Positions 40,421 through 60,931 of a stretch of 64,000 nt of DNA are shown one piece after another. The position numbers and the translations under genes are program-made. The stretch's first letter is position 1, and each line of letters starts with the position of its first letter. The DNA is from a bacterium (GTDB lineage: Bacteria; Patescibacteriota; Minisyncoccia; Phycocordibacterales; UBA9973): positions 9,074 through 73,073 of the forward strand of contig JAKAKW010000011.1 in assembly GCA_021824345.1 (NCBI GenBank). Direction: 5' to 3'. Under the pieces are notes generated by a model that saw only the letters and a program-made list of their open reading frames with translations, was not told where the DNA came from and ran no database searches.

Positions 40421-40765
40421 TTAAAACGTTAATTTATAATACTTTTCATCCTTATGGCCGAATTTGTCTTCGGCTTGGATTACCATCATATTATACCCCG
40501 GAAGCAGGGCCACCGTATCTTCAAAATTACCCTTTTCATCTATAGGTATTTCCCGTCCGTCCAGGTACAGTTTCAAGGCATTTTCCGCGCTTCCTTTTAC
40601 TTTCATTATCCCGTCCCGGGTCTGGTCTCGTTCTGCGATGTTTACGTCTTGTATCTTCACCCCGAAGACCAAAGCCTTGGTCCGATAGAAAGCGTACAAT
40701 ACTATTAATAAAGAAAAGATAAAGAAAATGGAGATCTTCAGCAGTTTCTTCGCGTCAGTGGTCAT
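40421..40765 (-). CDS. Small hypothetical membrane-anchored protein between ftsK and recA
   Basis: 114 aa, N-terminal TM helix, 4-nt overlap with the ftsK stop; no recognisable domain. Confidence 0.5.
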
Positions 40766-46893: not shown

Positions 46894-46926
46894 GTGTTTC
46901 AACTGTTTTATTTGTATAATGTACGA

Positions 46927-48951
46927 ATGAATTTAAAAGACAAGGTTCTCAAATATGCCAGTTTCATTCTTGTACTCCTTATTCCCGTCGTATATTTCGG
47001 AGGAGCGGCATATCCGAGCATCGCGCCTAAGATTTTTTTCTTTTACGGAGCAGTTGAATTGATGGCCGCCTTTTGGATATATGCTTTACTCACCGATCCG
47101 GAGTATCGATTAACAAAGAAAACTCTCCTTTATTTTATCCCCATATTTGCCTTTGTGGCATGGATGACCGTTTCAGGCGTCATGGCGGTCAATCCGCGTT
47201 TGGCGTTCTGGGGTACCCTGGCTCGAGGAACCGGCCTTATTGTTCTTTATCACGCCTTCATTTTTTCCGTTATAATGGCGTCTCTGTTTAAGAAGTTCGG
47301 AAAGGAATATTTGTACAGGCTGATGAAATGGTTTGTGGCGGGAGGGTTTTTGCTTTCAATAACCATATGGTTTGGGGCGTCAGGTTTCAAATTGCCGTAT
47401 CAGTGGTCTCAAACCGACGGGGGAGGAGGATTGACCGGCAATTCGTCTCTTGCGGCCGCCTACCTTCTCTTTGCCATTGCTTTTGGAATAATTTTGTTGC
47501 TTTCACGCTCAGTTTCTAAGAAAGAGAAATGGCTTACTGTGGGCGCCCTTACTGTTACAATCTTTTCTCCTCTTTTTATAAACTTGGTTTTCTGGATGTT
47601 CTCCGGCCAAGGTTTGATGGGGAATGCCCGCGGAGCAACAATAGGGATGTTTTCCGGAGTGGCTGCAGCTCTTGTAATTTATGCTATTTTTTCCGGTAAA
47701 AAAACTTGGCGAGCAATTGGCATTATCCTTGTTATCGCAGGGATTGCCAGCTTTTCATATCTATGGAATCGGTTAGTTACGCCCGGCACCTCTCTTCATG
47801 AGACATTTGTCCAAGATGCTACTGGTACCCGTTTCATATTTTGGAATGTGGGAAGCGAAGTTTTACAGGATAGTCCATGGTTTGGCTACGGGCCTGAAAA
47901 TTACATGATTGCTTTCCAAAGGCATTTTGATTACCGAATGCTTGAGGCAAAATATAACCATGAGGTATGGAACGATCGGGCCCATAACATCTATTATCAG
48001 ACCGGAACGGATGGCGGATATCCTGCCATTGTTTTATACGCGCTGTTTCTGGCAGGCATTCTATTTGCATTGTATAAAGCATACAAAAAAGAACGCCTGA
48101 GTCTGAAAGAGGCGTGCATCCTTGCCGGCTTGATCGTCGGATATGTTATCCAAAATTTGGTTTATTTCGATTCCACCATATCACTCATGGCTCTTTTCCT
48201 TGTGGCAGGAACAGCATACGGATTTCAATTTGACACCGCAAAACAAAATGAGGAAGTGTGGAAACTAAAGTCTATTCCAATCCAAAAGATCACATCCGTT
48301 ATCATCTTCATATTTTTTGCCCTTGCTTTCATTGTTTTCGCCTGGAATCCTTTTATGAAAGACATAGCGTATGTAAACGCCTTTGAACATCCGTCCGAAC
48401 AATCCTTCAAAGCCCTTGAAGACGGATCTTCCATTGGGGAAGATTGGGATGTCAGCGGATTTGCCAATGATATGTATAAGTTCTATGCTTCCCATTCCTT
48501 GTCCATAAAAAGCGACAAAGCCAGAAATGAACGTGCTATTCAAAGTATTTCATACACCCTTAACTATCTTGAATGGCTGGCTCCGAGAGAGCCGTATGAT
48601 TTTCGCCTTTATGCGAGCATGGTACTTCTATACAATACCAGGACTTTCCTTTCAAATGCTTCATATGATTCCGCGCAAGCGGAACACTTGCTTGCGCTTC
48701 TGGCTCATGCGGAAAAGCTGTCTCCCGGGGACCCAGAGATGTATTGGAATGAGGCCCAGATAATGGCCTGGAAGGGCGATTTGCAAGCTGCGGCAAACGC
48801 GTATGAAAAGGCGATAGAGGTTGCGCCAAAATTGTCCGTATCGCATGAACTGCTCATTAAGTTCGCACGGGCTCTGGGCGACAAAAATCTGTATAACTTT
48901 GCGGTAGATCAGGCAAAAAAGTATGTTCCCAATTTTGTAATTCCCAATTAG
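46927..48951 (+). CDS. Wzy_C (O-antigen ligase/polymerase superfamily) membrane protein with C-terminal TPR-like domain
   Basis: Multi-TM protein with the Wzy_C signature region ...WNDRAHNIYYQTGTDGGYPAIVLY... and a periplasmic C-terminal TPR-like region. Start placed at ATG 46927 (MNLKD...) because the ATG at 46894 abuts the upstream terminator and a TATAAT lies at 46913-18. Confidence 0.8.
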   Translation: MNLKDKVLKYASFILVLLIPVVYFGGAAYPSIAPKIFFFYGAVELMAAFWIYALLTDPEYRLTKKTLLYFIPIFAFVAWMTVSGVMAVNPRLAFWGTLARGTGLIVLYHAFIFSVIMASLFKKFGKEYLYRLMKWFVAGGFLLSITIWFGASGFKLPYQWSQTDGGGGLTGNSSLAAAYLLFAIAFGIILLLSRSVSKKEKWLTVGALTVTIFSPLFINLVFWMFSGQGLMGNARGATIGMFSGVAAALVIYAIFSGKKTWRAIGIILVIAGIASFSYLWNRLVTPGTSLHETFVQDATGTRFIFWNVGSEVLQDSPWFGYGPENYMIAFQRHFDYRMLEAKYNHEVWNDRAHNIYYQTGTDGGYPAIVLYALFLAGILFALYKAYKKERLSLKEACILAGLIVGYVIQNLVYFDSTISLMALFLVAGTAYGFQFDTAKQNEEVWKLKSIPIQKITSVIIFIFFALAFIVFAWNPFMKDIAYVNAFEHPSEQSFKALEDGSSIGEDWDVSGFANDMYKFYASHSLSIKSDKARNERAIQSISYTLNYLEWLAPREPYDFRLYASMVLLYNTRTFLSNASYDSAQAEHLLALLAHAEKLSPGDPEMYWNEAQIMAWKGDLQAAANAYEKAIEVAPKLSVSHELLIKFARALGDKNLYNFAVDQAKKYVPNFVIPN

Positions 48952-48974: not shown

Positions 48975-49880
48975 ATGAAAAAAATTGTGATAACCGGAGG
49001 GGCAGGCTTTATCGGATCCCACATTGCGGATGCGCTGATTGAGAAAGGATATGAAGTCCATGTGGTGGACAATCTTTCCGCCGGGAAGAAAGAGAATGTG
49101 AATTCCAAAGCCATTTTGCACGTCGCGGATATACGCAATGGCATGGAAATGCTTAAGATATTTGAGGGAGCGGAATATGTTTTTCACGAAGCCGCTTTTC
49201 CGAGGGTGCAATATTCCATTGAAAATCCGGTGGAAACGCATGACATAAACGTAAACGGAACTTTGAATGTGCTGGAAGCGGCGCGGCTGTCCGGAGCAAA
49301 AAAAGTGATCTTCGCTTCCTCCTGCGCGGTATATGGCAATCCGACAAAATTACCAGTGGATGAAACTGGCGAGATTTCTCCCATGTCTCCCTATGCGGTG
49401 CACAAATGGATGGGGGAAAAGTATTGCCGAATGTATTCGGATCTGTACGGCCTTAAAACTGTCTGTCTCAGGTACTTTAACGTATACGGTCCGCGTATGG
49501 ATCCGGAGGGAGCTTATCCAATGGCGATCGGTAATTTCATCAAGATGCGTAAAATAGGCAAGCCTCTTCCCATAACCGGCGACGGAACGCAGACCAGAGA
49601 TTTTGTGAATGTAAAAGATGTGGTAAAGGCCAATCTTCTTGCGTTGGAATCAGACAAGATTGAAAAAGGAGAGGTGGTGAATATAGGCAGCGGCGTAAAA
49701 ACTTCCGTCAATCGCCTCGCCGAGCTTATCGGTGGACCTGTGGAGCGCATTTCTGCGCGACATGAACCGCACGATGTGCAATCTGATGTTTCATTGGCTG
49801 AAAAACTTTTAAGCTGGAAAGCGTCGGTAGTTATCGAGGAAGGACTTGCGGAATTAAAAAAAGAAAATAGTATAGCTTGA
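48975..49880 (+). CDS. NAD-dependent sugar-nucleotide epimerase (GalE-like extended SDR)
   Basis: ITGGAGFIGSH Rossmann motif, SS.AVYG, YAVHK (YxxxK). Confidence 0.8.
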   Translation: MKKIVITGGAGFIGSHIADALIEKGYEVHVVDNLSAGKKENVNSKAILHVADIRNGMEMLKIFEGAEYVFHEAAFPRVQYSIENPVETHDINVNGTLNVLEAARLSGAKKVIFASSCAVYGNPTKLPVDETGEISPMSPYAVHKWMGEKYCRMYSDLYGLKTVCLRYFNVYGPRMDPEGAYPMAIGNFIKMRKIGKPLPITGDGTQTRDFVNVKDVVKANLLALESDKIEKGEVVNIGSGVKTSVNRLAELIGGPVERISARHEPHDVQSDVSLAEKLLSWKASVVIEEGLAELKKENSIA

Positions 49881-50983: not shown

Positions 50984-52072
50984 ATGACAAAAAAATTTAA
51001 TAAAAGAAATCAAAAAGTAAACAAACGAGCGCTAATAATAGGCATAACGGGCCAAGACGGCTCGTATTTGGCTGAATTCCTGCTCTCTCGCGGATACGAG
51101 GTGCACGGCCTTATACGGCGCTCTTCCAGCTTCAACACGGGCCGTTTGGACGATATTTACCAGGATCCGCATGAAAGCCACCGCAGGCTCTATTTGCACT
51201 ATGGCGACCTAATTGATTCTCACAGCCTATTAAATATCATCAGCGAAAGCCAGCCGGACGAAATTTACAATCTCGGGGCGCAGAGCCATGTGCGCGTCAG
51301 CTTTGACATTCCGGAATATACCGCCGACGTGGATGCGCTGGGAACCACCCGCCTTTTGGATGCGGTGCGGGCGAGTAAACTGCCTGCAAAAATTTATCAA
51401 GCAGGATCCAGCGAGATGTTCGGGAAAGTATTGGAAACTCCGCAAAAAGAAAACACTCCATTCAACCCTCAAAGCCCCTATGCATGCGCCAAAGTATTCT
51501 CGCACTTCATTTGTAAAAATTACCGCGATTCATACGGAATGTTCATCGCCAACGGCATACTTTTCAATCATGAATCTCCCCGGCGGGGAAAAACTTTTGT
51601 GACCAAGAAAATAACCGAAGGCCTTGCGGACATAAGACTGGGGAAGAAAGACAGAATATATCTTGGGAATCTGGACGCCAAGCGCGATTGGGGATACGCG
51701 CCGGACTACGTGGAAGCAATGTGGCAGATGCTCCAGGAGGAAAAGCCGAATGATTACGTAATATCTACAGGGGAAACTCATTCAGTGCGCGAATTTGCCG
51801 AGGAAGCGGCACGTCTCATAGACATGGATCTGCAATGGAAGGGAAGCGGGCTTGAGGAGGAAGGCATAGACGCAAAGACGGGCCAAACAATCATCAGCAT
51901 TGATCCAAAGTATTACCGCCCTAGCGAGGTGGATGCCCTTCTCGGCGATAGTTCCAAGGCAAAGAAGAATCTTGGCTGGGAACCAAAAGTTAAATTCAAG
52001 GAGTTAGTGAAAATTATGATGGTAGGAGAGTTTGAAGAGAGAAAATTGGACAGTTCCGCATATTTGTCTTGA
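50984..52072 (+). CDS. gmd: GDP-mannose 4,6-dehydratase
   Basis: [34 protein letters not shown]..., GMD family. Confidence 0.9.
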
Positions 52073-53007
52073 TCATGGAAAAGAACTCCAAAATATACGT
52101 TGCCGGACATACCGGACTTGTCGGTTCGGCGATTGTACGAGAACTTAAAAAACAGGGATATGAGAATCTAATATTTAGGACTAGCAAAGAGCTAGACTTG
52201 CGCTCGCAATCAGACACCTTAGATTTTTTTAAGAAAGAACAGCCCGAGTATGTCTTTCTTGCCGCCGCCAAAGTTGGCGGTATAGGGGCAAATGATAAAT
52301 ATTCGGCGGATTTCATTAGGGACAACCTAGAGATAGAAGACAACGTAATTGACGGCAGCCACCAAGGGGGAGCAAAGAAACTGCTTTTTTTGGGCAGTTC
52401 ATGTATATATCCAAAGCTTGCTCCCCAGCCTTTAAAAGAAGAATACTTGCTCACCGGTCCGCTTGAAGAGACAAATAAAGCGTATGCGGTAGCAAAAATA
52501 GCCGGAATCACCATGTGCCAGATGTATGATAAACAGTATGGCACGAATTTTATTAGCGCCATGCCTACTAATTTGTATGGTCCCGGGGACAATTTTGATC
52601 TTGAAACTTCGCATGTTCTGCCCGCGATGATTCGGAAGTTTCATGAAGCAAAAGAAAGCGGGGCTAAAGAAGTGACACTGTGGGGCACGGGCAATCCTAA
52701 ACGAGAATTTCTGCATGTGGATGACTTGGCAAGCGCATGCGTTTTCCTTATGGAAAAGTACGATAGTCCGGAGATAATAAACGTGGGAACAGGGGAAGAT
52801 GTTTCAATAATGGAGCTGGCAGACAAAGTAAAAAAAATAATAGGGTGTTCCGGTAAAATTGTATGGGATTCAGACAAGCCCGACGGAACGCCGCGTAAGC
52901 TGCTGGATACTTCAAAAATCAATGCTCTCGGCTGGAGACCGTTAATTTCCATGGACGAAGGTATAAAATCTACATACGAGTGGTTTTTGGATAAATATGG
53001 AAAATAA
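52069..53007 (+). CDS. fcl: GDP-L-fucose synthase (GDP-4-keto-6-deoxymannose 3,5-epimerase/4-reductase)
   Basis: [15 protein letters not shown].., [14 protein letters not shown]. 4-nt overlap with gmd. Confidence 0.9.
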
Positions 53008-55015
53008 ATATGACATTGTAATAGTCGGCGCCGGAATTTCCGGCGCTACTCTGGCAGAGCGGTACGCTTCTTTAGGAAAAAAAGTGCTGGTGATAGAATC
53101 TCGGGACCATATCGGAGGAAACTGTTACGATTTCATTAATGAAGACGGAATCTTGGTGGCAAAATACGGGCCGCACTATTTTCATACGAATTATGAAGAC
53201 GTGTGGAGATATGTGAACCGTTTTTCTGAATGGGTCCCTTTTGAGGCTCGAGCCGTCAGTCATATTGACGGGAAAAAGGTTTCTTTACCCATAAACATAA
53301 AGACAATAAATCAGGTCTTTGGCTTGGAGATTAAAGAAAAAGAAGAAATGGAGAAGTGGGTAAAAGAAAATACTGAACCAAAAAGGCACCCCAGAAATTC
53401 TGAAGATGCGGCAATAGGCCGGGTAGGCAAAATCCTATATGAAAAGGTATTCAAGGAGTACACTCGAAAACAATGGGATAAGGATCCCAAGGAGCTTGAC
53501 CCTGAAGTGACAAACAGGATACCGATTCGCCTAAACGATGACGACAGGTATTTTACCGATGTCCATCAAGCCATACCAAGGGAAGGATACGCCAAGCTTT
53601 TTAAAAATATGTTAAGCAATGAAAATATAGAAGTTCGCCTCAATACCAAGTGGGAAGATGAAAAAGACAGGATTACTTACCGGGAGAAACTTTTTTTTAC
53701 GGGGAGGATTGATTCATATTTTAAAAAGAAATTCGGCCTGTTGGAATATCGCTCGCTTAAGTTTGAGTTTGAGACTTTTAACCGCGAATATTTTCAGGAA
53801 TACGTGCAGGAGAATTACCCGTCACTTAAAGTTCCCTTTACCCGAATTGTTGAATACAAGCATATGACCGGTCAGAAACATCCAAAAACGACCGTTTCCC
53901 GCGAATATCCTACTTGGGAGGGGGAGCCGTATTATCCGGTTCCTTCGACAAAAAACAGGAAGATATACGTAAAATATCAGCATGAGGCGAAAAGGTTGGA
54001 GAAGAAAAACATTTATTTTGTCGGCCGACTGGCCAATTACAAATACTTTAATATGGATCAGGCGTTCAAGAACGCCCTGGATTTGTTCTATAGGCTGGAA
54101 GGAAAGAAAGAACGCGGATCGGGGATGACGGTAAGACTCGCCGGGGGAATGGGAAACCAGATGTTTCAATACGCACTTGGCCGGAAGCTTTCAATAAAAA
54201 ACAACGTACCCTTGTATCTTGATTTGACGTTTTTAAATCACAGAGTCAAACTACCGGAGTTTTTGCGCCCTCATTTCGTTTTTCATGATTTGAAACTTGA
54301 TGTGTTTAATATCAAGGCTGACATCGCGAATCCCGCCCAAATTGGTTTTTGGAACCGTCCCTTTTTATCTGGAAAGATCATGATATTGATTGACGCGATT
54401 TTGCGCAAGCTCGCGCTCTTCCCAGGATGGGAAAAGTCATTTTCTTTTAACAAGAAAATCCTTGATTTAGGTCCTGGCACGTACCTGGAGGGATATTGGC
54501 AAAGCGAAAAATATTTCAAGGATATAAGCGAAACGCTTCGGAAAGATTTTTCCTTGAAAGCGCCCTTGTCCGGCAAGGCAGCGGAACTTTATAAAGAAAT
54601 AAGAAACTGCGCGTCCTTATGTATATTTGTGCGCAGGAAAGACATGGCAGATAAATCTTTTCACGGCACCGTGCCCATTGAGTATTACCGTGCCGGCATA
54701 GAATACATAAAGAAGCGTCAACCTATTGAAAAAATATACGTGTTTTCAGATGACAATGAATGGTGCCGGCAGAATCTGAAGTTTGAATATCCCACCTTGA
54801 TCGCCGAAAAGGAATGTTCCGGCAAGAAATGGGAAGGGCATCTTATTTTAATGAGTGCGGGCCGGAATTTCATAATCGCCAACAGTACTTTTTCCTGGTG
54901 GTCGGCATGGCTTTCAGATAACCCGAACAAGATAGTCGTTGCCCCTAAACAATGGTTTGGGAACAATAGGCTGGACGATTCCGATTTAATACCCGAAAGC
55001 TGGGTAAGATTATAA
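52997..55015 (+). CDS. Fusion ORF: UDP-galactopyranose mutase (N-terminal ~375 aa) plus GT11 alpha-1,2-fucosyltransferase (C-terminal ~295 aa)
   Basis: N-terminal [18 protein letters not shown]...[15 protein letters not shown] (Glf FAD-binding) through ...[12 protein letters not shown]. The C-terminal part begins at the internal Met of [18 protein letters not shown] (GT11 motif I) and contains VRRKD, YVFSDD and [12 protein letters not shown] motifs. Continuous frame with no stop. 11-nt overlap with fcl. Confidence 0.75.
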
Positions 55016-55090: not shown

Positions 55091-55930
55091 ATGGCAAAAA
55101 AGAAACTCCGCATAGGATTTATCGGACAAGGATATATCGGGAAGAATTATGCGGATGATTTTGAACGCAGAGGATATAAAGTTACCCGATATTCAAAAGA
55201 GCGTCCTTATATCAAAAACAAAGAAGAAATCAAAGAGTGCGACGTAATATTCATAGCGGTTCCGACCCCTACGCGCCACGGATCCTTTTATGACGGAGTA
55301 TTGAGAGAAGTTATTCCTCTGGCCGGCCGAAATAAGGTTGTGGTCATCAAGTCCACTGTGAGCCCAGGCCTCACCCGCATCTTGCAAAATAAATTCAAAG
55401 ACCGCCTCATTATTCACAGTCCTGAATTTTTGAGCGAGGATACCGCCGCCAATGATGCAAGCAATCCTTTTTTTAATATTGTCGGTATAAAAAAGAATTC
55501 CCGAAAGCATAAAAAGGCGGCCTCGCTCCTTCTAACCATACTTCCTCCTTCTCCGTTTTTCTCCATAGTTTCATACGAAGAAGCCGAGCTCATAAAATAT
55601 ATTCATAATTCTATGGCCTTTACCCAAATTGTTTTTTTTAATCTTATGTATGATTTGGCCCTAAAATTTGGCGCCGATTGGGCCAATATCAACAGAGCCA
55701 TAAAAGCGGATCCGTTAATACCCAACAGGTACTCCGAACCTGTGCATAAGAGCGGAAGGGGTGCGGGCGGGCATTGTTTCATAAAGGATTTTGCAGTCAT
55801 ATCCCAGGCCTATGAAAAAGCAGTAAAGGATCCAAAAGGAATTGATGTATTGAAAAGCCTGGAAATAAAAAACATAGATCTTCTTAGAAAGAGCAAGAAG
55901 GATCTTGAATTGCTTCGTGAGATTTATTAA
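55091..55930 (+). CDS. UDP-glucose/GDP-mannose dehydrogenase-family protein, short (279 aa; C-terminal UDP-binding domain missing)
   Basis: IGFIGQGYIG (NAD-binding), VIFIAVPTPT, VVIKSTVSPG, IIHSPEFLSED, GAGGHCFIKD (catalytic Cys), as in Ugd; the ORF ends about 50 aa after the catalytic Cys. Confidence 0.55.
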   Translation: MAKKKLRIGFIGQGYIGKNYADDFERRGYKVTRYSKERPYIKNKEEIKECDVIFIAVPTPTRHGSFYDGVLREVIPLAGRNKVVVIKSTVSPGLTRILQNKFKDRLIIHSPEFLSEDTAANDASNPFFNIVGIKKNSRKHKKAASLLLTILPPSPFFSIVSYEEAELIKYIHNSMAFTQIVFFNLMYDLALKFGADWANINRAIKADPLIPNRYSEPVHKSGRGAGGHCFIKDFAVISQAYEKAVKDPKGIDVLKSLEIKNIDLLRKSKKDLELLREIY

Positions 55931-55939
55931 ATTTCCTAT

Positions 55940-56860
55940 ATGAAAAAAAACGCGGTTTCAGAAAAAATTTCGGCGGTTGTGGTAACGCATAATAGAAAAG
56001 AACTCTTAAGGAATTGTTTGAATGGAATTTTGCGGCAAACTGTCCCTGTCAACCATATCTTTATAATTGACAACGATTCTAAAGATGGTACGGAGGATAT
56101 GATCCGGGACAAATTTGGAGATAATCAGCTTGTAGAATATAGAAATCTCGGTAAAAATACCGGAAGCGCCGGTGGCTTTCATGAGGGTGTGAAGATGGCC
56201 TACGAGCGTGGATCGGAATGGATCTGGCTTATGGATGATGACGTAACACCTCGCCCTGATTGTCTGGAAAAAATGAAAAGCTACGGGCATATATCAAAAT
56301 GTATCAATGCAAACAAAGTTGATCCATCAAACAAGGAATATGAGTTCATGTTTGAAGTTATATTTGATCCTTCAATATGCAGAATGACTTTTATGAATAA
56401 TATCTCCTTTAAAAACGGCAAAGATTTTGCTTTTGTCAATGTCGGATGTTTTGAGGGAATGCTTATTCACCGAGATATTGTTGCCCAAATAGGTTTTCCT
56501 GACAAGCGATTTTTCATTTATAGCGATGATACCACTTATGGATTTATCGCTTCTCTGTATACAAATGTTATTTTTGTGAGAGATGCGTATTTTGATAAAA
56601 AAGTTTCCTTTAAAAATACTGCCACGCCGATTTTTTCATATTACGCGATTCGAAACCAATTCTTACTTAAGGAATACCTAAAGAAATACGGCATTTATAA
56701 TGCGCGCCTGTTTTATCTTGGAATAGCATTATTCGCCGGTCTGGCTGCCACCAAGCAGGCGGTTAGAAGCAGAGACATCAAGATACCATGGTATGTTCTT
56801 CGGGGATTATTTGACGGCTTAAGGGGAAAGTTTTATCAGATTGGGACACACAGAAAATGA
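55940..56860 (+). CDS. Family 2 glycosyltransferase
   Basis: ISAVVVTHNRKELL...IFIIDNDSKDGT (DxD) ...WIWLMDDD, GT-A fold GT2 motifs. Confidence 0.8.
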   Translation: MKKNAVSEKISAVVVTHNRKELLRNCLNGILRQTVPVNHIFIIDNDSKDGTEDMIRDKFGDNQLVEYRNLGKNTGSAGGFHEGVKMAYERGSEWIWLMDDDVTPRPDCLEKMKSYGHISKCINANKVDPSNKEYEFMFEVIFDPSICRMTFMNNISFKNGKDFAFVNVGCFEGMLIHRDIVAQIGFPDKRFFIYSDDTTYGFIASLYTNVIFVRDAYFDKKVSFKNTATPIFSYYAIRNQFLLKEYLKKYGIYNARLFYLGIALFAGLAATKQAVRSRDIKIPWYVLRGLFDGLRGKFYQIGTHRK

Positions 56861-59019
56861 ATCTTTCCTGGGAAAAGATAAACAAGGGACTTTTACTTCT
56901 TGGACTTGTTGCCCTGCTATATAGGGAAGGGAACTTTGCCGGCACGTTTATACCAAAGCCCTTTGAAATAATATTTGTGATCTTGTGTGTTTCCACAGCT
57001 CTTTTCATGTTAAAGGGCTCAAAAATGAAGGATTTTTTCGCATCAATACCGAGAAAAATATTAATTGCCGTATGTGTAATGTTGGGGTCAGTATTTCTGG
57101 GATGGATTTCGGCTTCATTGTCCGGCATGAAGCCCAATTTCAATATGATTTTGGAGCTAGGAACTTTTTTAATCGGAATTGGCATTTTTCTTTTGATTCT
57201 TTTTTATGCTCAGGGGAACAAAGCGTATGCGCGATATTGCTTATATGCCATGCTGGTTCCGGCGATATATGCTTTTTTTATTTTCCTGTATCCCGGCACA
57301 TATCTTGGCATAAATTTAAAAATACATTTCCTGGGTTTTACGATAAATCCGAATACCATTTCAAAGATCTTATTGATCCCGGCAATGTTTTTTGTTTCTT
57401 ATTCATTATTCGAGCATCGGAACAAATGGATAAAGGCTCTGTATATTTTCTTGTCCGCTTCCATGGTTTCTCTAATATTCTGGACGGGGTCAAGAGGGTC
57501 TTTGGTAAGCCTTATAATAGGAATGGGTTTCATTTTAGTCGTATACATATTTCATGAATTCACCTGGAAAAAAATCTTCTTCGGTTCCGGAGTAATCTTA
57601 GCTATACTTATTTTGGGTCAGGGGATGTTGCCCATAGATCGACAGGAGGCATTCGTGCACAGAGTGGTCCTCACTTTTATTCATCAGCCGAATATAGTTT
57701 CCACCTTGCGAGAATATACTACTGGGGTAGTTATATATCAGAATAAAGAGGAAGAATTGGAAGGAACGATTGACATAAAACTCGTTGAGCCTAGGCTCAT
57801 TGCGTGGCCGTTCTATTTGAAATATGTGCTTCTTCATCCCCTTGGCATAGGTCCGGATACGCACAAAGATTTCGGACTTGTAGATAAAAAAGGCAATCCA
57901 ATAAATTCAGGTCCTCATAACACCTATCTTGAAATATGGCTGTGGGGAGGCATACTAGGCATCCTAAGTTTCATATACTTATTGTATTGCGCTTTTAAAA
58001 ACTTAACGGAAAGGATCAAATCTTCCTTCAGCCTGACAAATATTGCGCTACTGGCGATTCTTTTTGCTTTATCCGTATCTATTTTCTTTGATGACAGTCT
58101 TTCATTTTATTGGTTTTTCATAATCTTGGCGTTTGCCTTAATTGAAAAGGAGACTATTGCGGTCAGCATGCATATGGGAAAAGAAGAGCTAGATATTTTT
58201 GCAAAGCTGAGTTGGAACTTCAAAACGGTTTTTGATGTTGGTTCAAGAGACGATATTGATTATTTTAAGATAAAAAACGACTGCGAGTATCATTTGTTCG
58301 AACCTAATACGGAGGCTATTGCCTCAATAAAACGGAAAATTTCGAATTTAGGCGAGCACAATATAATTCTCAATGAATTCGGACTATCAGACGCCGACAA
58401 AGACAACTGCGTTTATTACAAGAACGTTCAGTCATTTATCCCGCATTGGAGTTTAGCCTCTTTTGACACTGGCGAACGTTTTTCTCTGCGTAAAATGGAT
58501 GATTATGTGGAAAATCACGGCATATCCTTCATTGATTTTCTGAAAATAGACGTTGAAGGAATGGATTATCAAGTAATACTCGGGGGCATAAATACTATTA
58601 AGCGGAACAACAAAGTATCTTTTATCCAGCTGGAATGTTCCGGTGGCAGCAGGCAATATATCGAGCTTCTGGATAATTTTGATTTTTACTTAATTATGGA
58701 TCCTAGTCTGCTGAAAGTGATCAATACTTTAAACAGAACAGGCATCGACTTCAACAAGCAATTGATCAAGATGGATGAGGATGTAATAATTTTTTTGGAT
58801 AAGACTATGGCTGAAACTGGCGCCGCGGCTTGTATTTTAGGAGTGAATAAAAACATTGATTTTTCTTTAATAATTCAAGAAAGAAAACTGGCATACAGCA
58901 TAGTTTCCGTGAACAAATCGTACAGTGGAATGGCTCTGGATTATTTTAAGATCTTATACGGTATCAAAAGGCGCTTGCGGAAAATAAGGAAGACGGTCAA
59001 AAATTTCCTCTTTACTTGA
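56857..59019 (+). CDS. Fusion ORF: Wzy_C (O-antigen ligase/polymerase-like) membrane domain plus C-terminal FkbM-family methyltransferase domain
   Basis: About 430 aa with 10 or more TM helices and the Wzy_C region (GSRGSLVSL...SGPHNTYLEIWLWGGILG). From about residue 440, FkbM-type MTase motifs (FDVGSRDDIDYF...FEPN......KIDVEGMDYQVILG). No stop between the two parts. Confidence 0.7.
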   Translation: MNLSWEKINKGLLLLGLVALLYREGNFAGTFIPKPFEIIFVILCVSTALFMLKGSKMKDFFASIPRKILIAVCVMLGSVFLGWISASLSGMKPNFNMILELGTFLIGIGIFLLILFYAQGNKAYARYCLYAMLVPAIYAFFIFLYPGTYLGINLKIHFLGFTINPNTISKILLIPAMFFVSYSLFEHRNKWIKALYIFLSASMVSLIFWTGSRGSLVSLIIGMGFILVVYIFHEFTWKKIFFGSGVILAILILGQGMLPIDRQEAFVHRVVLTFIHQPNIVSTLREYTTGVVIYQNKEEELEGTIDIKLVEPRLIAWPFYLKYVLLHPLGIGPDTHKDFGLVDKKGNPINSGPHNTYLEIWLWGGILGILSFIYLLYCAFKNLTERIKSSFSLTNIALLAILFALSVSIFFDDSLSFYWFFIILAFALIEKETIAVSMHMGKEELDIFAKLSWNFKTVFDVGSRDDIDYFKIKNDCEYHLFEPNTEAIASIKRKISNLGEHNIILNEFGLSDADKDNCVYYKNVQSFIPHWSLASFDTGERFSLRKMDDYVENHGISFIDFLKIDVEGMDYQVILGGINTIKRNNKVSFIQLECSGGSRQYIELLDNFDFYLIMDPSLLKVINTLNRTGIDFNKQLIKMDEDVIIFLDKTMAETGAAACILGVNKNIDFSLIIQERKLAYSIVSVNKSYSGMALDYFKILYGIKRRLRKIRKTVKNFLFT

Positions 59020-60931
59020 AAAGCTTCCGGTATTTATCCTTGTTTTTCAAAACGTAGTCCGGCAAATCTGATTCGTCGGTCCAGTATTTGAATTTTCGGC
59101 CTCGATAATCCACGTTTTTATTCACTCTATCTTCTAAAGTTTCCAGCCAGTCTGCATAGGCTGGGTGCCGCCATTCCGCCATTTTTCTTTTTGCTCCTTC
59201 CACTCCTCCCATAAATCCGAAATGCCATCCGCCATCGTTAACCTCGGCATATCTAGTCTTTTTTCTGGTACGCAGATCATTCAGGCAATTTTCTTTTATA
59301 GTTTTGTATTGAACGGCAATTGTCCCCGTCCAACCGTTTACTTCGTTACAACGATTGTTTAAATAGTAATAGTATGCAAGCTGCTTTGGGCGGATTATCT
59401 CGCTTTTTGAAAAATCGGTAAGCCCTTTTAATTTTATTGGGTTCCATATTTCATCCAAGTCGGACACAAATACCACGTCCGTGTCATTCAGATTAAGCTT
59501 CGCAAGTGCTTTTTTCGCGCTTTCTTTCTGATAGAATTCCCGTACCCAGTAATGCTCTCCGGCGCCTACGTTGCTGTTATTCTTTGCCATTTCAAACAAG
59601 GAAGTGTCTTTAGGAAAATCATTCACCACGTAATAGGTTATCTTGTCTTTCCATTTTGCGAACCGCTCCTTGTGTTTCTCGTATTGCAGTTCATGGGGCA
59701 TTCCGGAAAAAGTTTCCGTGCTCTCCACGATCACGAATTGGTCCACGTAATCGTTCAATATATTAAGCCTGATTTCCAGGAGATCAAGTTCATTGAGCAG
59801 ATAAAACAGGTCGTATACCTTGATCCTTTTCTTATATTCGTCCAGTTCTATTTTTGATACCCAGGCCTTTTGCCTGACTTTTTCTTTTTTCAGTTCAAGG
59901 GAAGTTCTTACGAAGTTTTTTGCGCTCTGCATCTTGTAAATCACCGCCCTGGCGGCCCTTCTGGCGCTTTTCGGAAGCAATTGTTTGGCTTTTGCCTTCA
60001 TGCCTTTTGGGGCCGGCATGAAAACGGGAGCCTGATTTTGATAATAATCTTTATGTCTTTCCATATACGCCTTCAGTTCCTTTAAGCATGTATCATAATC
60101 GTTGAGATTCCCTTCCCGGTCCAGGTAATTCCACCCTTTCGTAATGTTGTATCCCAGGCTCCAGTATCCGTCCGAAACGTTGTGCCTGCCCCAATATTTC
60201 GGTGCAATGCAGAATTTTAGACTCTCGCTAAGCCAGGCGGGAAACCAAGCGAAGCTGGAATTGGACATGATGAGATAATGGGCGTTTTTAACCACGACAT
60301 AATCCTTTGCAATACTGAAATGAAATACCCCGAAATCCGGGAAGAATTTTTTGGCTGTTGAAACATCTTCGGTAATTACAATGAATCGGAAATTCGGATT
60401 GATTTTTCGCATATGCCTTACGGCATCTTCCCAATATTCTTTTCTCAAAAAAAATTCCGGATGCCTGACATACTCTCCGCCCCGGAAATTTATGACGCAG
60501 GTGTTGTCATCGGCGTAGTCATAGCATTCATATTCTTCCTTCACCTGGAGCCATTTTTTTATTTCATCCTTTCGGTGAAAAATATATTGCTCGTCTTGCA
60601 TTAATCCGTCTATTTTTGTGCCATCTTTAATGTTTACCAGATTTTTGTCATATGTTCTGATGTCTGCTCCGGAAAATGGGTGGATGATTTTTCTTTCAGT
60701 GTAATAATACTGCATGCCTTCGGGCAAGGTTTTGGGCGGTCCGCCCTCCGGGCCTTTTCCGCCTGTCACCTTACATCCGAAATCAAGATTCATAAAATTT
60801 CCCGCCTTAAATTTTTCAGGGGATTTGATACCAAAATCATATCCATTATCTAAGGAAAAAACTCTCGTTGCCACATAGCAGGCAAGCTGGTTGCCCAGTC
60901 CTTGGCCGTTGTATAACTCTGTAATTATCAT
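59012..60931 (-). CDS. Two-domain glycosyltransferase: N-terminal GT11-like domain plus C-terminal GT17-like (MGAT3-type) domain
   Basis: N-terminal GQGLGNQLACYV, FRGGEYV, MSNSSFAWFPAWL mirror GT11 motifs I/II/IV. C-terminal FYLLNELDLLEIRLNILNDYVDQFVIVESTETFSG..., TDVVFVSDLDEIW, GGWHFGFMGG, PDYVLKNKDKY parallel Glyco_transf_17 blocks (NHEFDLLDVRF..VVDAFVVCESNFT, DDVFIIDDADEIP, GWHCSWCF, PKYLLKNYDRF, recalled from memory). Confidence 0.7.
   Translation of the reverse strand: MIITELYNGQGLGNQLACYVATRVFSLDNGYDFGIKSPEKFKAGNFMNLDFGCKVTGGKGPEGGPPKTLPEGMQYYYTERKIIHPFSGADIRTYDKNLVNIKDGTKIDGLMQDEQYIFHRKDEIKKWLQVKEEYECYDYADDNTCVINFRGGEYVRHPEFFLRKEYWEDAVRHMRKINPNFRFIVITEDVSTAKKFFPDFGVFHFSIAKDYVVVKNAHYLIMSNSSFAWFPAWLSESLKFCIAPKYWGRHNVSDGYWSLGYNITKGWNYLDREGNLNDYDTCLKELKAYMERHKDYYQNQAPVFMPAPKGMKAKAKQLLPKSARRAARAVIYKMQSAKNFVRTSLELKKEKVRQKAWVSKIELDEYKKRIKVYDLFYLLNELDLLEIRLNILNDYVDQFVIVESTETFSGMPHELQYEKHKERFAKWKDKITYYVVNDFPKDTSLFEMAKNNSNVGAGEHYWVREFYQKESAKKALAKLNLNDTDVVFVSDLDEIWNPIKLKGLTDFSKSEIIRPKQLAYYYYLNNRCNEVNGWTGTIAVQYKTIKENCLNDLRTRKKTRYAEVNDGGWHFGFMGGVEGAKRKMAEWRHPAYADWLETLEDRVNKNVDYRGRKFKYWTDESDLPDYVLKNKDKYRKLFK

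What the first reader, a model, noticed from the sequence alone, without database searches (positions are those of the whole stretch)
52997..55015. Apparent in-frame fusion of UDP-galactopyranose mutase with a GT11 alpha-1,2-fucosyltransferase
One 672-aa ORF encodes a complete Glf (FAD-binding GxGxxG ... to about residue 375) and, after a short KKERGSG linker, a complete GT11 domain starting at an internal Met ([17 protein letters not shown]). Glf supplies a different sugar (Galf) from the one GT11 enzymes normally transfer (fucose from GDP-Fuc, made by the two genes immediately upstream). A physical fusion is therefore functionally unexpected. It may instead be two genes whose intervening stop was lost or mis-sequenced. 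If real, it is a precursor-synthesis/transfer bifunctional enzyme without precedent that I know of.
Basis: seen in the sequence. Interest (0 to 1): 0.55.

Follow-up and report, generated by a model that had tools for sequence, protein, structure and literature searches.

The report
Real fused galactofuranose-mutase/fucosyltransferase gene
In one uncultured, tiny-genome (Patescibacteria) bacterium, two sugar-coat genes that lie side by side as separate genes in its relatives have merged into one gene; the merger is real, but it looks like an ordinary neighbour-gene fusion rather than a new kind of enzyme.

Summary
Window 52997..55015 (+) is one uninterrupted 672-aa ORF. It encodes a complete UDP-galactopyranose mutase (Glf, residues 1-376) followed directly by a complete GT11-family glycosyltransferase that starts at its own Met377.

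It is not a sequencing slip. The identical protein was read on 13 contigs from NCBI, ENA and Logan. Two of these assemblies match the window base for base over 2.2 kb.

The fusion is a singleton. All close Glf relatives (up to 79% identity) and all close GT11 relatives (up to 70%) are stand-alone proteins.

The pairing is not odd, however. In Patescibacteria, GT11>glf>GT2 (GlfT1-like) is a recurring cassette, found in six loci and a seventh with wzy inserted. gmd-fcl>GT11 recurs in seven loci.

The same locus holds two more neighbour fusions, Wzy::methyltransferase and GT11-like::GT17. Glf fused to other transferase-like domains is common in metagenomes.

Best reading: a bifunctional protein with mutase plus probable alpha-1,2-fucosyltransferase activity. 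A separate GlfT1-like GT2 would transfer the Galf.

Minority reading (about 12%): the GT11-like domain itself uses UDP-Galf.

Interest is modest.

The parts
52997..55015 (+). Fused ORF glf::GT11, 672 aa (stop codon 55013-55015)
   Evidence: Identical protein read on 13 contigs. DNA identical in L001 and L002.
52997..54097 (+). UDP-galactopyranose mutase domain, residues 1-367
   Evidence: TIGR00031 scores 367.6 bits, above its cutoff. Matches D. radiodurans UGM 3HDQ at E 3e-112 over residues 4-375. Motifs GAGISG 11-16, Y155, W160, R174, Y185, YRSLKF 251-256, PYYPV 311-315 and [13 protein letters not shown] 343-355 are all present.
53027..53044 (+). FAD-binding GxGxxG (GAGISG, residues 11-16)
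   Evidence: Present in 119 of 119 stand-alone homologues checked.
54098..54124 (+). Junction EGKKERGSG (residues 368-376); this is the native variable C-terminal tail of Glf acting as a linker
   Evidence: Stand-alone Glf tails end 2-12 aa after the conserved ...DLFxRLE. The 3HDQ tail RLQGQPEQGN aligns with [10 protein letters not shown]. No promoter-like, terminator-like or repeat element here.
54125..55012 (+). GT11-family glycosyltransferase domain, residues 377-672, starting at its ancestral Met
   Evidence: Pfam PF01531 scores 84.1 bits. 70% identical end to end to stand-alone P0121. AF2 model pLDDT 92.2. Best PDB fold matches are NodZ, FUT8, AtFUT1 and POFUT1.
54143..54175 (+). GT11 N-terminal motif [11 protein letters not shown] (residues 383-393; taken here to be 'motif IV')
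   Evidence: Invariant or nearly invariant in 68 homologues. The paper lists motifs I-IV but not their sequences (PMC8439653).
54626..54643 (+). GT11 motif I variant FVRRKD (residues 544-549; canonical form HxRRxD, the GDP-Fuc phosphate-binding motif)
   Evidence: R546 and R547 are invariant in 68 of 68 homologues, D549 in 55 of 68, and Phe replaces His in 5 of 68. Motif role from PMC8593560 and PMC8439653.
50984..52072 (+). gmd, GDP-mannose 4,6-dehydratase
   Evidence: TIGR01472 scores 545.6 bits against a cutoff of 415.
52069..53007 (+). fcl, GDP-L-fucose synthase. The ATG at 52075 is the start called in the NCBI record. The gene overlaps the fused ORF by 11 nt.
   Evidence: NF047922 scores 482.4 bits against a cutoff of 500; it is the best hit. 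Gene calls.
55091..55930 (+). Short (279 aa) nucleotide-sugar dehydrogenase-like protein that lacks the C-terminal domain
   Evidence: Pfam UDPG_MGDP_dh_N plus the central domain only. TIGR03026 scores 124.6 bits, below its cutoff, matching profile positions 71-282 of 413.
55940..56860 (+). GT2 glycosyltransferase, the likely galactofuranosyltransferase of the locus
   Evidence: Best NCBIfam hit is GlfT1 (NF050113, 85 bits, below its cutoff of 330). It is 52-67% identical to the GT2 that directly follows glf in L003, L016, L087, L171, L174, L176 and L177.
56857..59019 (+). Second neighbour fusion: Wzy_C polymerase/ligase-like :: FkbM-type methyltransferase, 720 aa
   Evidence: Pfam. Residues 1-431 are 63% identical to the L084 Wzy (432 aa). 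Residues 438-720 are 69% identical to the adjacent, separate L084 methyltransferase (283 aa).
59012..60931 (-). Third fusion: GT11-like (DUF5672-related) :: GT17-like, 639 aa
   Evidence: Pfam. Residues 1-347 are 63% identical to the C-terminal part of the L003 548-aa protein. Residues 368-639 are 51% identical to the adjacent, separate L003 GT17 (313 aa). The two are also fused in L087.
48975..49880 (+). GalE-like NDP-sugar epimerase, a possible UDP-Gal supplier for Glf
   Evidence: Best NCBIfam hit is TIGR01179 galE, 174.8 bits, below its cutoff of 262.

Best explanation
This is a genuine, evolutionarily young gene fusion in the surface-glycan gene cluster of one Patescibacteria (Paceibacteria/Nomurabacteria-like) lineage.

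How it arose. Two genes that are habitual neighbours in related genomes, glf and a GT11-family transferase, sit here in the order glf-GT11. The glf stop codon is gone. The native Glf tail therefore runs straight into the native start Met of the transferase.

What it makes. The product is a bifunctional polypeptide of about 77 kDa.
- The N-terminal domain is an intact FAD-dependent UDP-galactopyranose mutase (UDP-Galp <-> UDP-Galf).
- The C-terminal domain is an intact GT-B-like enzyme of the alpha-2/alpha-6/O-fucosyltransferase superfamily.
- That domain most likely transfers L-fucose from the GDP-fucose made by Gmd and Fcl, encoded immediately upstream, onto a Gal(p/f)-containing lipid-linked repeat unit.
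- The UDP-Galf made by the mutase domain is most likely used by the separate GlfT1-like GT2 two genes downstream.

What the fusion does. It gives equimolar co-expression and co-localisation of two enzymes of one repeat-unit pathway. It does not channel the mutase product into the attached transferase.

Shown: ORF continuity, reproducibility across assemblies, domain integrity, fold class, synteny.
Inferred: both activities, the fucose donor, the acceptor, and the role of the GT2.
For: The ORF and both domains are confirmed.

Reproducibility:
- The exact protein was read on 13 contigs from three sources.
- Nucleotide identity is 100% between the window, an NCBI MAG contig and a Logan contig.
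- GC content is flat across the junction, and there are no repeats there.

Domain integrity:
- Glf domain: above the TIGR00031 equivalog cutoff, full-length alignment with solved UGMs, all hallmark motifs present.
- GT11 domain: full-length match to stand-alone homologues. Both motif-I arginines are invariant.
- The high-confidence model's best PDB matches are all GDP-fucose enzymes: NodZ, FUT8, AtFUT1 and POFUT1.

Support for a fucose donor:
- Its closest homologue (P0121, 70%) sits in gmd-fcl>GT11 with no glf in view and is its sister on the tree.
- gmd-fcl>GT11 with gaps of 3-27 nt recurs in L084, L087, L006, L008, L010, L100 and L016.

Support for a separate Galf transferase:
- The conserved glf>GT2 pair, and the GlfT1-like best hit of the GT2, give Galf its own transferase.

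Support for neighbour fusion as the mechanism:
- The GT11-glf neighbourhood is conserved in six loci.
- Two further end-to-end fusions of neighbouring genes lie in the same locus.
Against: - No transcript, peptide or enzyme data exist.
- The fusion is known from one population only (cluster of one member). Selection for it cannot be shown, and it could be neutral.
- In relatives the gene order is GT11>glf, the reverse of the order here. The fusion therefore needed a rearrangement, not just loss of a stop codon.
- Four related loci carry GT11>glf>GT2 with no gmd or fcl within 7-8 kb. That fits a fucosyltransferase only if GDP-fucose genes lie elsewhere in those genomes.
- Motif I has Phe where characterised alpha-1,2-fucosyltransferases have His.
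- The GT11 domain matches no NCBIfam model.
Confidence: 0.6

Rival explanations
1. Coupled mutase-transferase. The GT11-like domain, and perhaps its whole Patescibacteria clade, has switched donor and transfers galactofuranose from UDP-Galf. The fusion places the transferase next to the mutase so that the scarce, thermodynamically disfavoured UDP-Galf is consumed where it is made.
For: - GT11>glf>GT2 is a conserved cassette in six loci, four of them with no gmd or fcl within 7-8 kb.
- The GT-glf-GT2 layout mirrors K. kingae pamA-pamB-pamC, where both flanking transferases are predicted Galf transferases (PMC12269835).
- Glf is fused to GT2 and other transferase-like domains in many metagenome proteins. 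Mutase-transferase coupling is therefore a recurrent theme.
- The clade has a divergent motif I: FVRRKDMA or HVRRADMA instead of HxRRGDY.
Against: - The papers read here describe GT11 as comprising almost exclusively fucosyltransferases, which use GDP-fucose (PMC8439653, PMC8593560).
- The best structural neighbours are all GDP-fucose enzymes.
- The closest homologue lies directly after gmd-fcl with no glf nearby.
- Five loci have gmd-fcl>GT11 with no glf in the flank held, which is 8-10 kb in L006, L008 and L100.
- The glf-linked and fcl-linked contexts are intermingled on the tree rather than forming separate clades.
- The window's own cluster makes GDP-fucose and needs a fucosyltransferase.
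- A GlfT1-like GT2 is already available for Galf.
Confidence: 0.12
2. The fused ORF is real, but it does not work as a bifunctional enzyme. Either the GT11 part is also or mainly translated on its own from the internal ATG at 54125, or the fusion is a neutral or slightly harmful recent accident in which one domain is impaired.
For: - The ancestral start Met of GT11 is retained exactly at the junction.
- The fusion is a singleton with no diverged relatives that keep it.
- Genes in this genome start without Shine-Dalgarno sites. The absence of an RBS at the junction therefore does not exclude internal initiation.
- A Phe-for-His change sits in motif I.
Against: - There is no promoter-like site and no AT-rich or TATAAT-like leader before 54125, unlike at many real starts in the window.
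- Both domains keep all family-invariant residues.
- The Phe variant also occurs in stand-alone homologues (P0146, P0161).
- C-terminal extensions of Glf are tolerated in many natural proteins.
Confidence: 0.12
3. Artefact. There are really two genes, and a stop codon or frameshift was lost through sequencing or assembly error, or through a chimeric join.
For: - All related genomes have separate genes, and in the opposite order.
- All assemblies come from what is evidently one population, so a shared systematic error cannot be excluded absolutely.
Against: - The exact protein was read on 13 contigs, ranging from the 5-10 kb to the 0.2-1 Mb length class, in NCBI, ENA and Logan assemblies made from separate runs and with different assemblers.
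- The window, L001 and L002 are identical over 2201 nt.
- The junction contains no homopolymer longer than 4 nt, no repeat and no compositional break.
- The alternative frames at the junction do not recreate a Glf-like tail; the in-frame tail aligns with that of 3HDQ.
Confidence: 0.04

Closest known systems
Stand-alone bacterial UDP-galactopyranose mutase (Glf/UGM), e.g. D. radiodurans 3HDQ and E. coli 1I8T
   Same: The N-terminal 376 residues align over the full length (E 3e-112 to 3HDQ). They have the same FAD-binding motif and the same conserved Arg/Tyr/Trp motifs, and they score above the equivalog cutoff.
   Different: Here the C-terminal tail continues into a 296-aa transferase instead of ending in a stop codon.
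Bacterial GT11 alpha-1,2-fucosyltransferases (H. pylori FutC, E. coli WbgL/WbsJ/WbwK, Thermosynechococcus Te2FT/Ts2FT)
   Same: Member of the Pfam GT11 family. It has the N-terminal [11 protein letters not shown] motif and the RRxD core of motif I, is about 296 aa long, and is encoded directly after gmd-fcl (motif roles from PMC8593560 and PMC8439653).
   Different: Motif I reads FVRRKD rather than HxRRGD. The domain belongs to a Patescibacteria subclade with an extra insertion (NHRxKMPxFLRPHF). It is fused to Glf. No member of this subclade has been assayed.
Uncharacterised Glf fusion proteins in metagenomes (Glf::DUF3431, Glf::GT2, GT2::Glf, GT4-like::Glf, Glf::GT90, Glf::GT61, Glf::DUF707, GalE-like::Glf)
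   Same: A complete Glf domain is joined to a glycan-synthesis domain in one polypeptide.
   Different: None of those examined has a GT11 partner. Several form families with diverged members, whereas the Glf::GT11 protein is a single sequence cluster.
[quoted passage not shown]
   Same: A fucosyltransferase is fused to another enzyme of the same glycan pathway so that consecutive steps sit on one polypeptide (mentioned in PMC8439653).
   Different: PgtA joins two transferases and is eukaryotic and cytoplasmic. Here the partner is a nucleotide-sugar mutase. PgtA was not compared by sequence here.
GT-glf-GT2 galactan loci (K. kingae pamA-pamB-pamC)
   Same: Same gene layout: transferase, mutase, GT2 (PMC12269835; window relatives).
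   Different: There the upstream transferase is GT111, a predicted Galf transferase. Here it is GT11, a fucosyltransferase family, and gmd-fcl often precedes it.

Membership tests
UDP-galactopyranose mutase (Glf, EC 5.4.99.9; TIGR00031 / PF03275) | Scores above the curated equivalog cutoff over the full length | tested here: met
   TIGR00031 scores 367.6 bits (370.1 for the domain alone) against a cutoff of 303.75, covering residues 4-363.
UDP-galactopyranose mutase (Glf, EC 5.4.99.9; TIGR00031 / PF03275) | N-terminal FAD-binding Rossmann motif GxGxxG | tested here: met
   GAGISG at residues 11-16. NAD_binding_8 E 3.7e-20.
UDP-galactopyranose mutase (Glf, EC 5.4.99.9; TIGR00031 / PF03275) | Conserved substrate-binding residues: mobile-loop Arg, second Arg, Tyr/Trp cluster. 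The residue roles come from my knowledge of the K. pneumoniae and D. radiodurans UGM structures. | tested here: met
   Y155, W160, R174, Y185, YRSLKF, PYYPV and [13 protein letters not shown] are all present. The same patterns occur in 101-119 of 119 stand-alone homologues. Aligned with 3HDQ.
UDP-galactopyranose mutase (Glf, EC 5.4.99.9; TIGR00031 / PF03275) | Interconverts UDP-Galp and UDP-Galf | not testable with these tools
   Needs an enzyme assay.
CAZy GT11 / Pfam PF01531 alpha-1,2-fucosyltransferases | Scores above the Pfam gathering threshold | tested here: met
   84.1 bits against a cutoff of 23.9. The best stretch covers only profile positions 124-295 of 298.
CAZy GT11 / Pfam PF01531 alpha-1,2-fucosyltransferases | N-terminal glycine-rich motif ([11 protein letters not shown]; I take this to be the family's 'motif IV') | tested here: met
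   [11 protein letters not shown] at residues 383-393, invariant or nearly invariant in 68 homologues. The paper places motif IV near the N-terminus (aa 13-18 of TbFUT1) but gives no sequence (PMC8439653).
CAZy GT11 / Pfam PF01531 alpha-1,2-fucosyltransferases | Motif I HxRRxD, the proposed GDP-fucose binding site; the two Arg and the Asp matter for activity (PMC8593560) | tested here: inconclusive
   The sequence is FVRRKD. Both Arg (68 of 68 homologues) and Asp (55 of 68) are kept. His is replaced by Phe, as in 5 of 68 homologues.
CAZy GT11 / Pfam PF01531 alpha-1,2-fucosyltransferases | Fold of the alpha-2/alpha-6/O-fucosyltransferase superfamily | tested here: met
   AF2 model pLDDT 92.2. 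Top Foldseek PDB hits are NodZ (E 9e-6, TM about 0.5), FUT8, AtFUT1 and POFUT1. No GT11 structure was found in the PDB by sequence.
CAZy GT11 / Pfam PF01531 alpha-1,2-fucosyltransferases | Uses GDP-L-fucose and makes an alpha-1,2 linkage | not testable with these tools
   Only context is available. gmd-fcl lies directly upstream here and in seven related loci. Four related loci lack gmd and fcl nearby.
Known galactofuranosyltransferase families (GT2 GlfT1/GlfT2 type and others), considered for the GT11 domain | Sequence membership in a family with a demonstrated UDP-Galf donor | tested here: not met
   The GT11 domain has no NCBIfam hit at all, and its Pfam and fold matches are fucosyltransferases. 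The neighbouring GT2 (55940-56860) is the one that hits the GlfT1 model, at 85 bits and below its cutoff.
Fusion of operon neighbours ('Rosetta stone' protein) | Each half is a full-length orthologue of a separate gene in other genomes | tested here: met
   Stand-alone Glf proteins of 369-385 aa reach 79% identity. Stand-alone GT11 proteins of 283-311 aa reach 70% identity.
Fusion of operon neighbours ('Rosetta stone' protein) | The separate genes are neighbours in related genomes | tested here: met
   GT11 and glf are adjacent in L016, L087, L171, L174, L176 and L177, always in the order GT11>glf, which is the reverse of the fused order.
Fusion of operon neighbours ('Rosetta stone' protein) | The fused reading frame is reproducible and not an assembly error | tested here: met
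   Read on 13 contigs from three sources. Two assemblies are identical to the window over 2201 nt. Raw reads were not inspected.

The most novel reading that the evidence does not exclude
The GT11-like domain, together with the Patescibacteria clade that habitually sits next to glf, is not a fucosyltransferase. It is a galactofuranosyltransferase with a fucosyltransferase-superfamily fold. The fusion physically couples the mutase to its consumer, which pulls the unfavourable UDP-Galp/UDP-Galf equilibrium forward. As far as I know, this would be the first UDP-sugar-using GT11 member, a new Galf-transferase family, and a natural synthesis-transfer enzyme.
Probability: 0.12. Interest if true: 0.75.

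Novelty: new variant of a known kind. Interest (0 to 1): 0.3.

Why it matters
If both domains are active, this is a natural single-chain enzyme that combines nucleotide-sugar isomerisation with a glycosyl transfer from the same glycan pathway. That makes it a small addition to the catalogue of multifunctional glycan enzymes and a possible tool for one-pot glycan synthesis.

The surrounding evidence is more useful than the fusion itself:
- It defines a conserved Patescibacteria cassette, (gmd-fcl)>GT11>glf>GT2>wzy. The cassette predicts a fucose- and galactofuranose-containing surface polymer in organisms whose envelopes are almost unstudied.
- It shows that glycan loci in these reduced genomes repeatedly weld neighbouring genes together.
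- The many Glf fusions to domains of unknown function, DUF3431 above all, point to candidate new galactofuranosyltransferase families.
- Galf is absent from humans, so its transferases attract interest as drug targets.

Tried and rejected
1. RBS test at the internal ATG. Anti-SD pairing energy is -3.9 kcal/mol at the junction, against a median of -2.1 at 45 gene starts and -3.5 at 325 internal ATGs. The genome barely uses SD sites, so the test cannot discriminate.
2. Promoter and terminator scan around the junction. The counts are at or below shuffle expectation, and nothing lies next to 54125.
3. Repeat search for a chimeric join. Only short chance matches were found.
4. Frameshift origin. 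I read the alternative frame by eye; it ends in an ATGA stop/start overlap, but its peptide (..[10 protein letters not shown]) does not resemble Glf tails. The in-frame tail aligns with 3HDQ, so no frameshift is needed.
5. Search for other Glf+GT11 proteins in either order. None was found among the best hits of the full-length query in 5.8 billion clusters, of the GT11 query, or of the exhaustive search of 1.84 billion representatives. None of the representatives of 550 aa or more carries the GT11 N-terminal motif.
6. PDB sequence search for a solved GT11. None was found.
7. Full-length structure model. Domain packing is untested.
8. Link to the characterised Thermosynechococcus enzymes. L025 (40% identity) comes from that genus, but its N-terminus does not match the published Ts2FT primer. 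Orthology is unverified and was not used.
9. tRNA and Rfam scans of the window found nothing.
10. A literature search for a described Glf-transferase fusion found none.
Full report
**1. The observation**

The window contains one ORF, 52997..55015 on the + strand. It encodes 672 aa, starts at ATG and has no internal stop under table 11.

- Pfam places NAD_binding_8 at residues 9-76, GLF at 150-350 (E 1.4e-71) and Glyco_transf_11 at 495-670 (84.1 bits; gathering score 23.9).
- The N-terminal 376 residues exceed the curated equivalog cutoff for UDP-galactopyranose mutase (TIGR00031: 370 bits against 303.75).
- They align over their full length with solved mutases (D. radiodurans 3HDQ, E 3e-112, residues 4-375).
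- The FAD motif GAGISG and the conserved motifs are all present: Y155, W160, R174, Y185, YRSLKF, PYYPV and [13 protein letters not shown].
- The internal Met is residue 377 (nt 54125). From there the protein aligns residue 1 to residue 296 with stand-alone GT11 proteins of about 296 aa.

The "linker" EGKKERGSG is simply a Glf tail. Stand-alone Glf proteins end 2-12 residues after the conserved ...DLFxRLE. The tail of 3HDQ (RLQGQPEQGN) aligns with [10 protein letters not shown].

**2. Is the fusion real?**

- The exact 672-aa sequence was read on 13 contigs, ranging from the 5-10 kb to the 0.2-1 Mb length class. They come from NCBI (GCA_027428375.1), ENA and Logan single-run assemblies.
- The window is identical at all 2201 positions to the NCBI contig and to a Logan contig from SRR13241953.
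- The junction has no homopolymer longer than four bases.
- It has no repeat that could cause a chimeric join.
- GC content shows no step; it stays at 0.41-0.43 on both sides.

I did not see raw reads. Even so, an error reproduced in that many independent assemblies is very unlikely (about 4%).

This genome has almost no Shine-Dalgarno signal. The median pairing energy is -2.1 kcal/mol at 45 gene starts, -3.5 at internal ATGs and -3.9 at the junction. There is no promoter-like or terminator-like site at the junction. The AT-rich, TATAAT-like leaders seen before many genes in the window are absent there.

**3. How common is it?**

This exact fusion is unique.

- In a search of 5.8 billion protein clusters, the full-length query found itself, then only stand-alone Glf proteins (79% identity downwards, 369-401 aa). 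The exceptions were two Glf+DUF3431 proteins.
- The GT11 half found only stand-alone proteins (70% identity downwards, 283-311 aa).
- An exhaustive HMMER search of 1.84 billion cluster representatives found no protein that matched both halves.
- The protein's own cluster has one member.

The general architecture is not rare. 55 of the best 150 Glf representatives are 550 aa or longer. The 30 I scanned carry the following partners:

- DUF3431 (seven cases)
- GT2 on either side of Glf
- GT4-like
- GT90
- GT61
- DUF707
- DUF3405
- GalE-like epimerases
- an ABC ATPase
- an Rce1-like domain
- extensions without any Pfam match

No paper in the searchable library describes a Glf-transferase fusion.

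**4. Genomic context**

This context changes the interpretation.

*Link to GDP-fucose genes.* The GT11 domain belongs to a Patescibacteria clade (source names: Nomurabacteria, Paceibacterota).

- In relatives, gmd-fcl>GT11 with gaps of 3-27 nt occurs in L084 (the closest homologue, 70%), L087, L006, L008, L010, L100 and L016.

*Link to glf.*

- GT11>glf>GT2 occurs in L016, L087, L171, L174/L175, L176 and L177. L003 has a wzy gene between GT11 and glf.
- L016 and L087 carry the longest forms of the cassette. L016 has gmd-fcl>GT11>glf>GT2. L087 has fcl>GT11>glf>GT2 before its contig ends.

*The window.* The order here is gmd-fcl>[glf::GT11]>short dehydrogenase-like gene>GT2>[wzy::methyltransferase]. 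The two fused genes are thus habitual neighbours, but they are swapped relative to all relatives.

*The GT2.* The window GT2 (55940-56860) is 52-67% identical to the GT2 that follows glf in those loci. Its best NCBIfam hit is the galactofuranosyltransferase GlfT1, although well below the cutoff (85 against 330 bits).

*Tree.* On a neighbour-joining tree, the fcl-linked and glf-linked GT11 genes are intermingled. The window's domain is sister to L084, which has gmd-fcl and no glf in view.

**5. Other fusions in the same locus**

- The 720-aa protein at 56857-59019 is an end-to-end join of orthologues of two adjacent, separate genes of L084. Wzy (432 aa) is 63% identical over residues 1-431. The methyltransferase (283 aa) is 69% identical over residues 438-720.
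- The 639-aa protein at 59012-60931 (-) joins orthologues of two adjacent, separate genes of L003. These two are also fused in L087.

Three neighbour fusions within 8 kb argue for a general tendency in this lineage rather than a special adaptation of Glf and GT11.

**6. What the GT11 domain probably does**

*For a fucosyltransferase:*

- An AlphaFold model built on 68 homologues is confident (pLDDT 92.2, pTM 0.92).
- Its best matches in the PDB are all GDP-fucose-dependent enzymes of the alpha-2/alpha-6/O-fucosyltransferase superfamily: NodZ, FUT8, Arabidopsis FUT1 and POFUT1.
- No GT11 structure was found in the PDB by sequence.
- Motif I (HxRRxD) has been implicated in GDP-fucose binding, and its two Arg and its Asp matter for activity (PMC8593560, PMC8439653). 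Here it reads FVRRKD. Both Arg are invariant in 68 of 68 homologues, and Asp is kept.
- The Phe-for-His change is shared with five stand-alone homologues.
- gmd-fcl lies immediately upstream, and the closest homologue has the same context.

Together these make an alpha-1,2-type fucosyltransferase the most economical assignment.

*Against it:*

- Four related loci have GT11>glf>GT2 but no gmd or fcl within 7-8 kb.
- The subclade's motif I departs from the canonical HxRRGDY.
- The GT-glf-GT2 layout resembles loci in which both flanking transferases are predicted to use UDP-Galf (K. kingae pamABC, PMC12269835).

I therefore keep a 12% reading in which the domain uses UDP-Galf.

**7. Mechanism proposed**

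*Shown:*

- one reading frame;
- two intact domains;
- tight operon packing (fcl overlaps the fused ORF by 11 nt, and the GT2 overlaps wzy::MT by 4 nt).

*Inferred:*

- Gmd and Fcl make GDP-L-fucose.
- A GalE-like epimerase (48975-49880) may supply UDP-Gal.
- The Glf domain makes UDP-Galf.
- The GT2 adds Galf, and the GT11 domain adds fucose, to a lipid-linked repeat unit.
- Wzy::MT polymerises or ligates the unit and methylates it.

The fusion would then enforce 1:1 expression and co-localisation of two enzymes of one pathway. It would not channel a metabolite.

**8. Verdict**

The artefact explanation is very unlikely. The "functionally unexpected, unprecedented" reading is only partly right.

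This is a new domain combination formed from two ordinary, habitually neighbouring genes. It is known from a single population and sits in a locus prone to such fusions. Interest is modest (0.3).

The most interesting open point is the donor sugar of this GT11 clade. A genome-wide check for gmd and fcl in the glf-linked genomes could settle it, as could a simple enzyme assay.

Noticed in passing
Proteins P0015, P0104, P0241, P0243, P0256, P0283, P0371 (not in the window); also L087:4085-6826(-) and L176:13653-16292(-): DUF3431, a domain with no characterised function in the searchable literature, is the most frequent fusion partner of Glf among the proteins scanned. It sits on either side of Glf. 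It is also fused to GT17-like domains in the related glycan loci. By guilt by association, it is a candidate galactofuranosyltransferase or Galf-related family.
   Followed up: partly
window 56857-59019 (+): A 720-aa protein joins a Wzy_C polymerase/ligase-like membrane domain to an FkbM-type methyltransferase. In L084 the two are adjacent, separate genes (63% and 69% identity).
   Followed up: yes
window 59012-60931 (-): A 639-aa protein joins a weak GT11-like (DUF5672-related) domain to a GT17-like domain. The two are separate adjacent genes in L003, and in L087 they are fused with an extra DUF3431 segment between them.
   Followed up: partly
window 55091-55930 (+): A 279-aa nucleotide-sugar dehydrogenase-like protein has only the N-terminal and central domains. 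It matches profile positions 71-282 of 413 and scores below the family cutoff. It may be a truncated remnant or a short variant, inserted between the fused gene and the GT2.
   Followed up: no
window, gene starts at e.g. 26718, 28049, 62292 (+) and the start of the (-) strand gene spanning 40762-43014: Most genes lack a Shine-Dalgarno sequence, and several have a TATAAT-like box only about 6-12 nt before the ATG. This suggests leaderless or very short-leader mRNAs in this organism.
   Followed up: no
GT11 homologues P0123, P0128, P0130, P0132, P0135, P0138-P0140 etc. (loci L088-L092): A sizeable subgroup of the Patescibacteria GT11 clade has motif I as HLRR(T/A/M)HGGG. It lacks the Asp reported as important for alpha-1,2-fucosyltransferase activity (13 of 68 have His at that position). 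No gmd, fcl or glf lies within 6-8 kb. Their donor sugar is an open question.
   Followed up: no
window 46894-48951 (+), and the equivalent genes in L171, L172, L174 and L176: A long (650-685 aa) Wzy_C-domain protein, here with a weak C-terminal TPR hit, is a conserved component upstream of these cassettes. It directly precedes GT11 in L171, L172, L174 and L176. In several of these loci it lies downstream of a PG_binding_1 protein and FtsK.
   Followed up: no
(tool behaviour): The search with the GT11 half alone did not return the fused protein P0001 itself among the 120 best hits, although P0001 is in the collection. Fusions may therefore be under-reported by single-domain queries.
   Followed up: no
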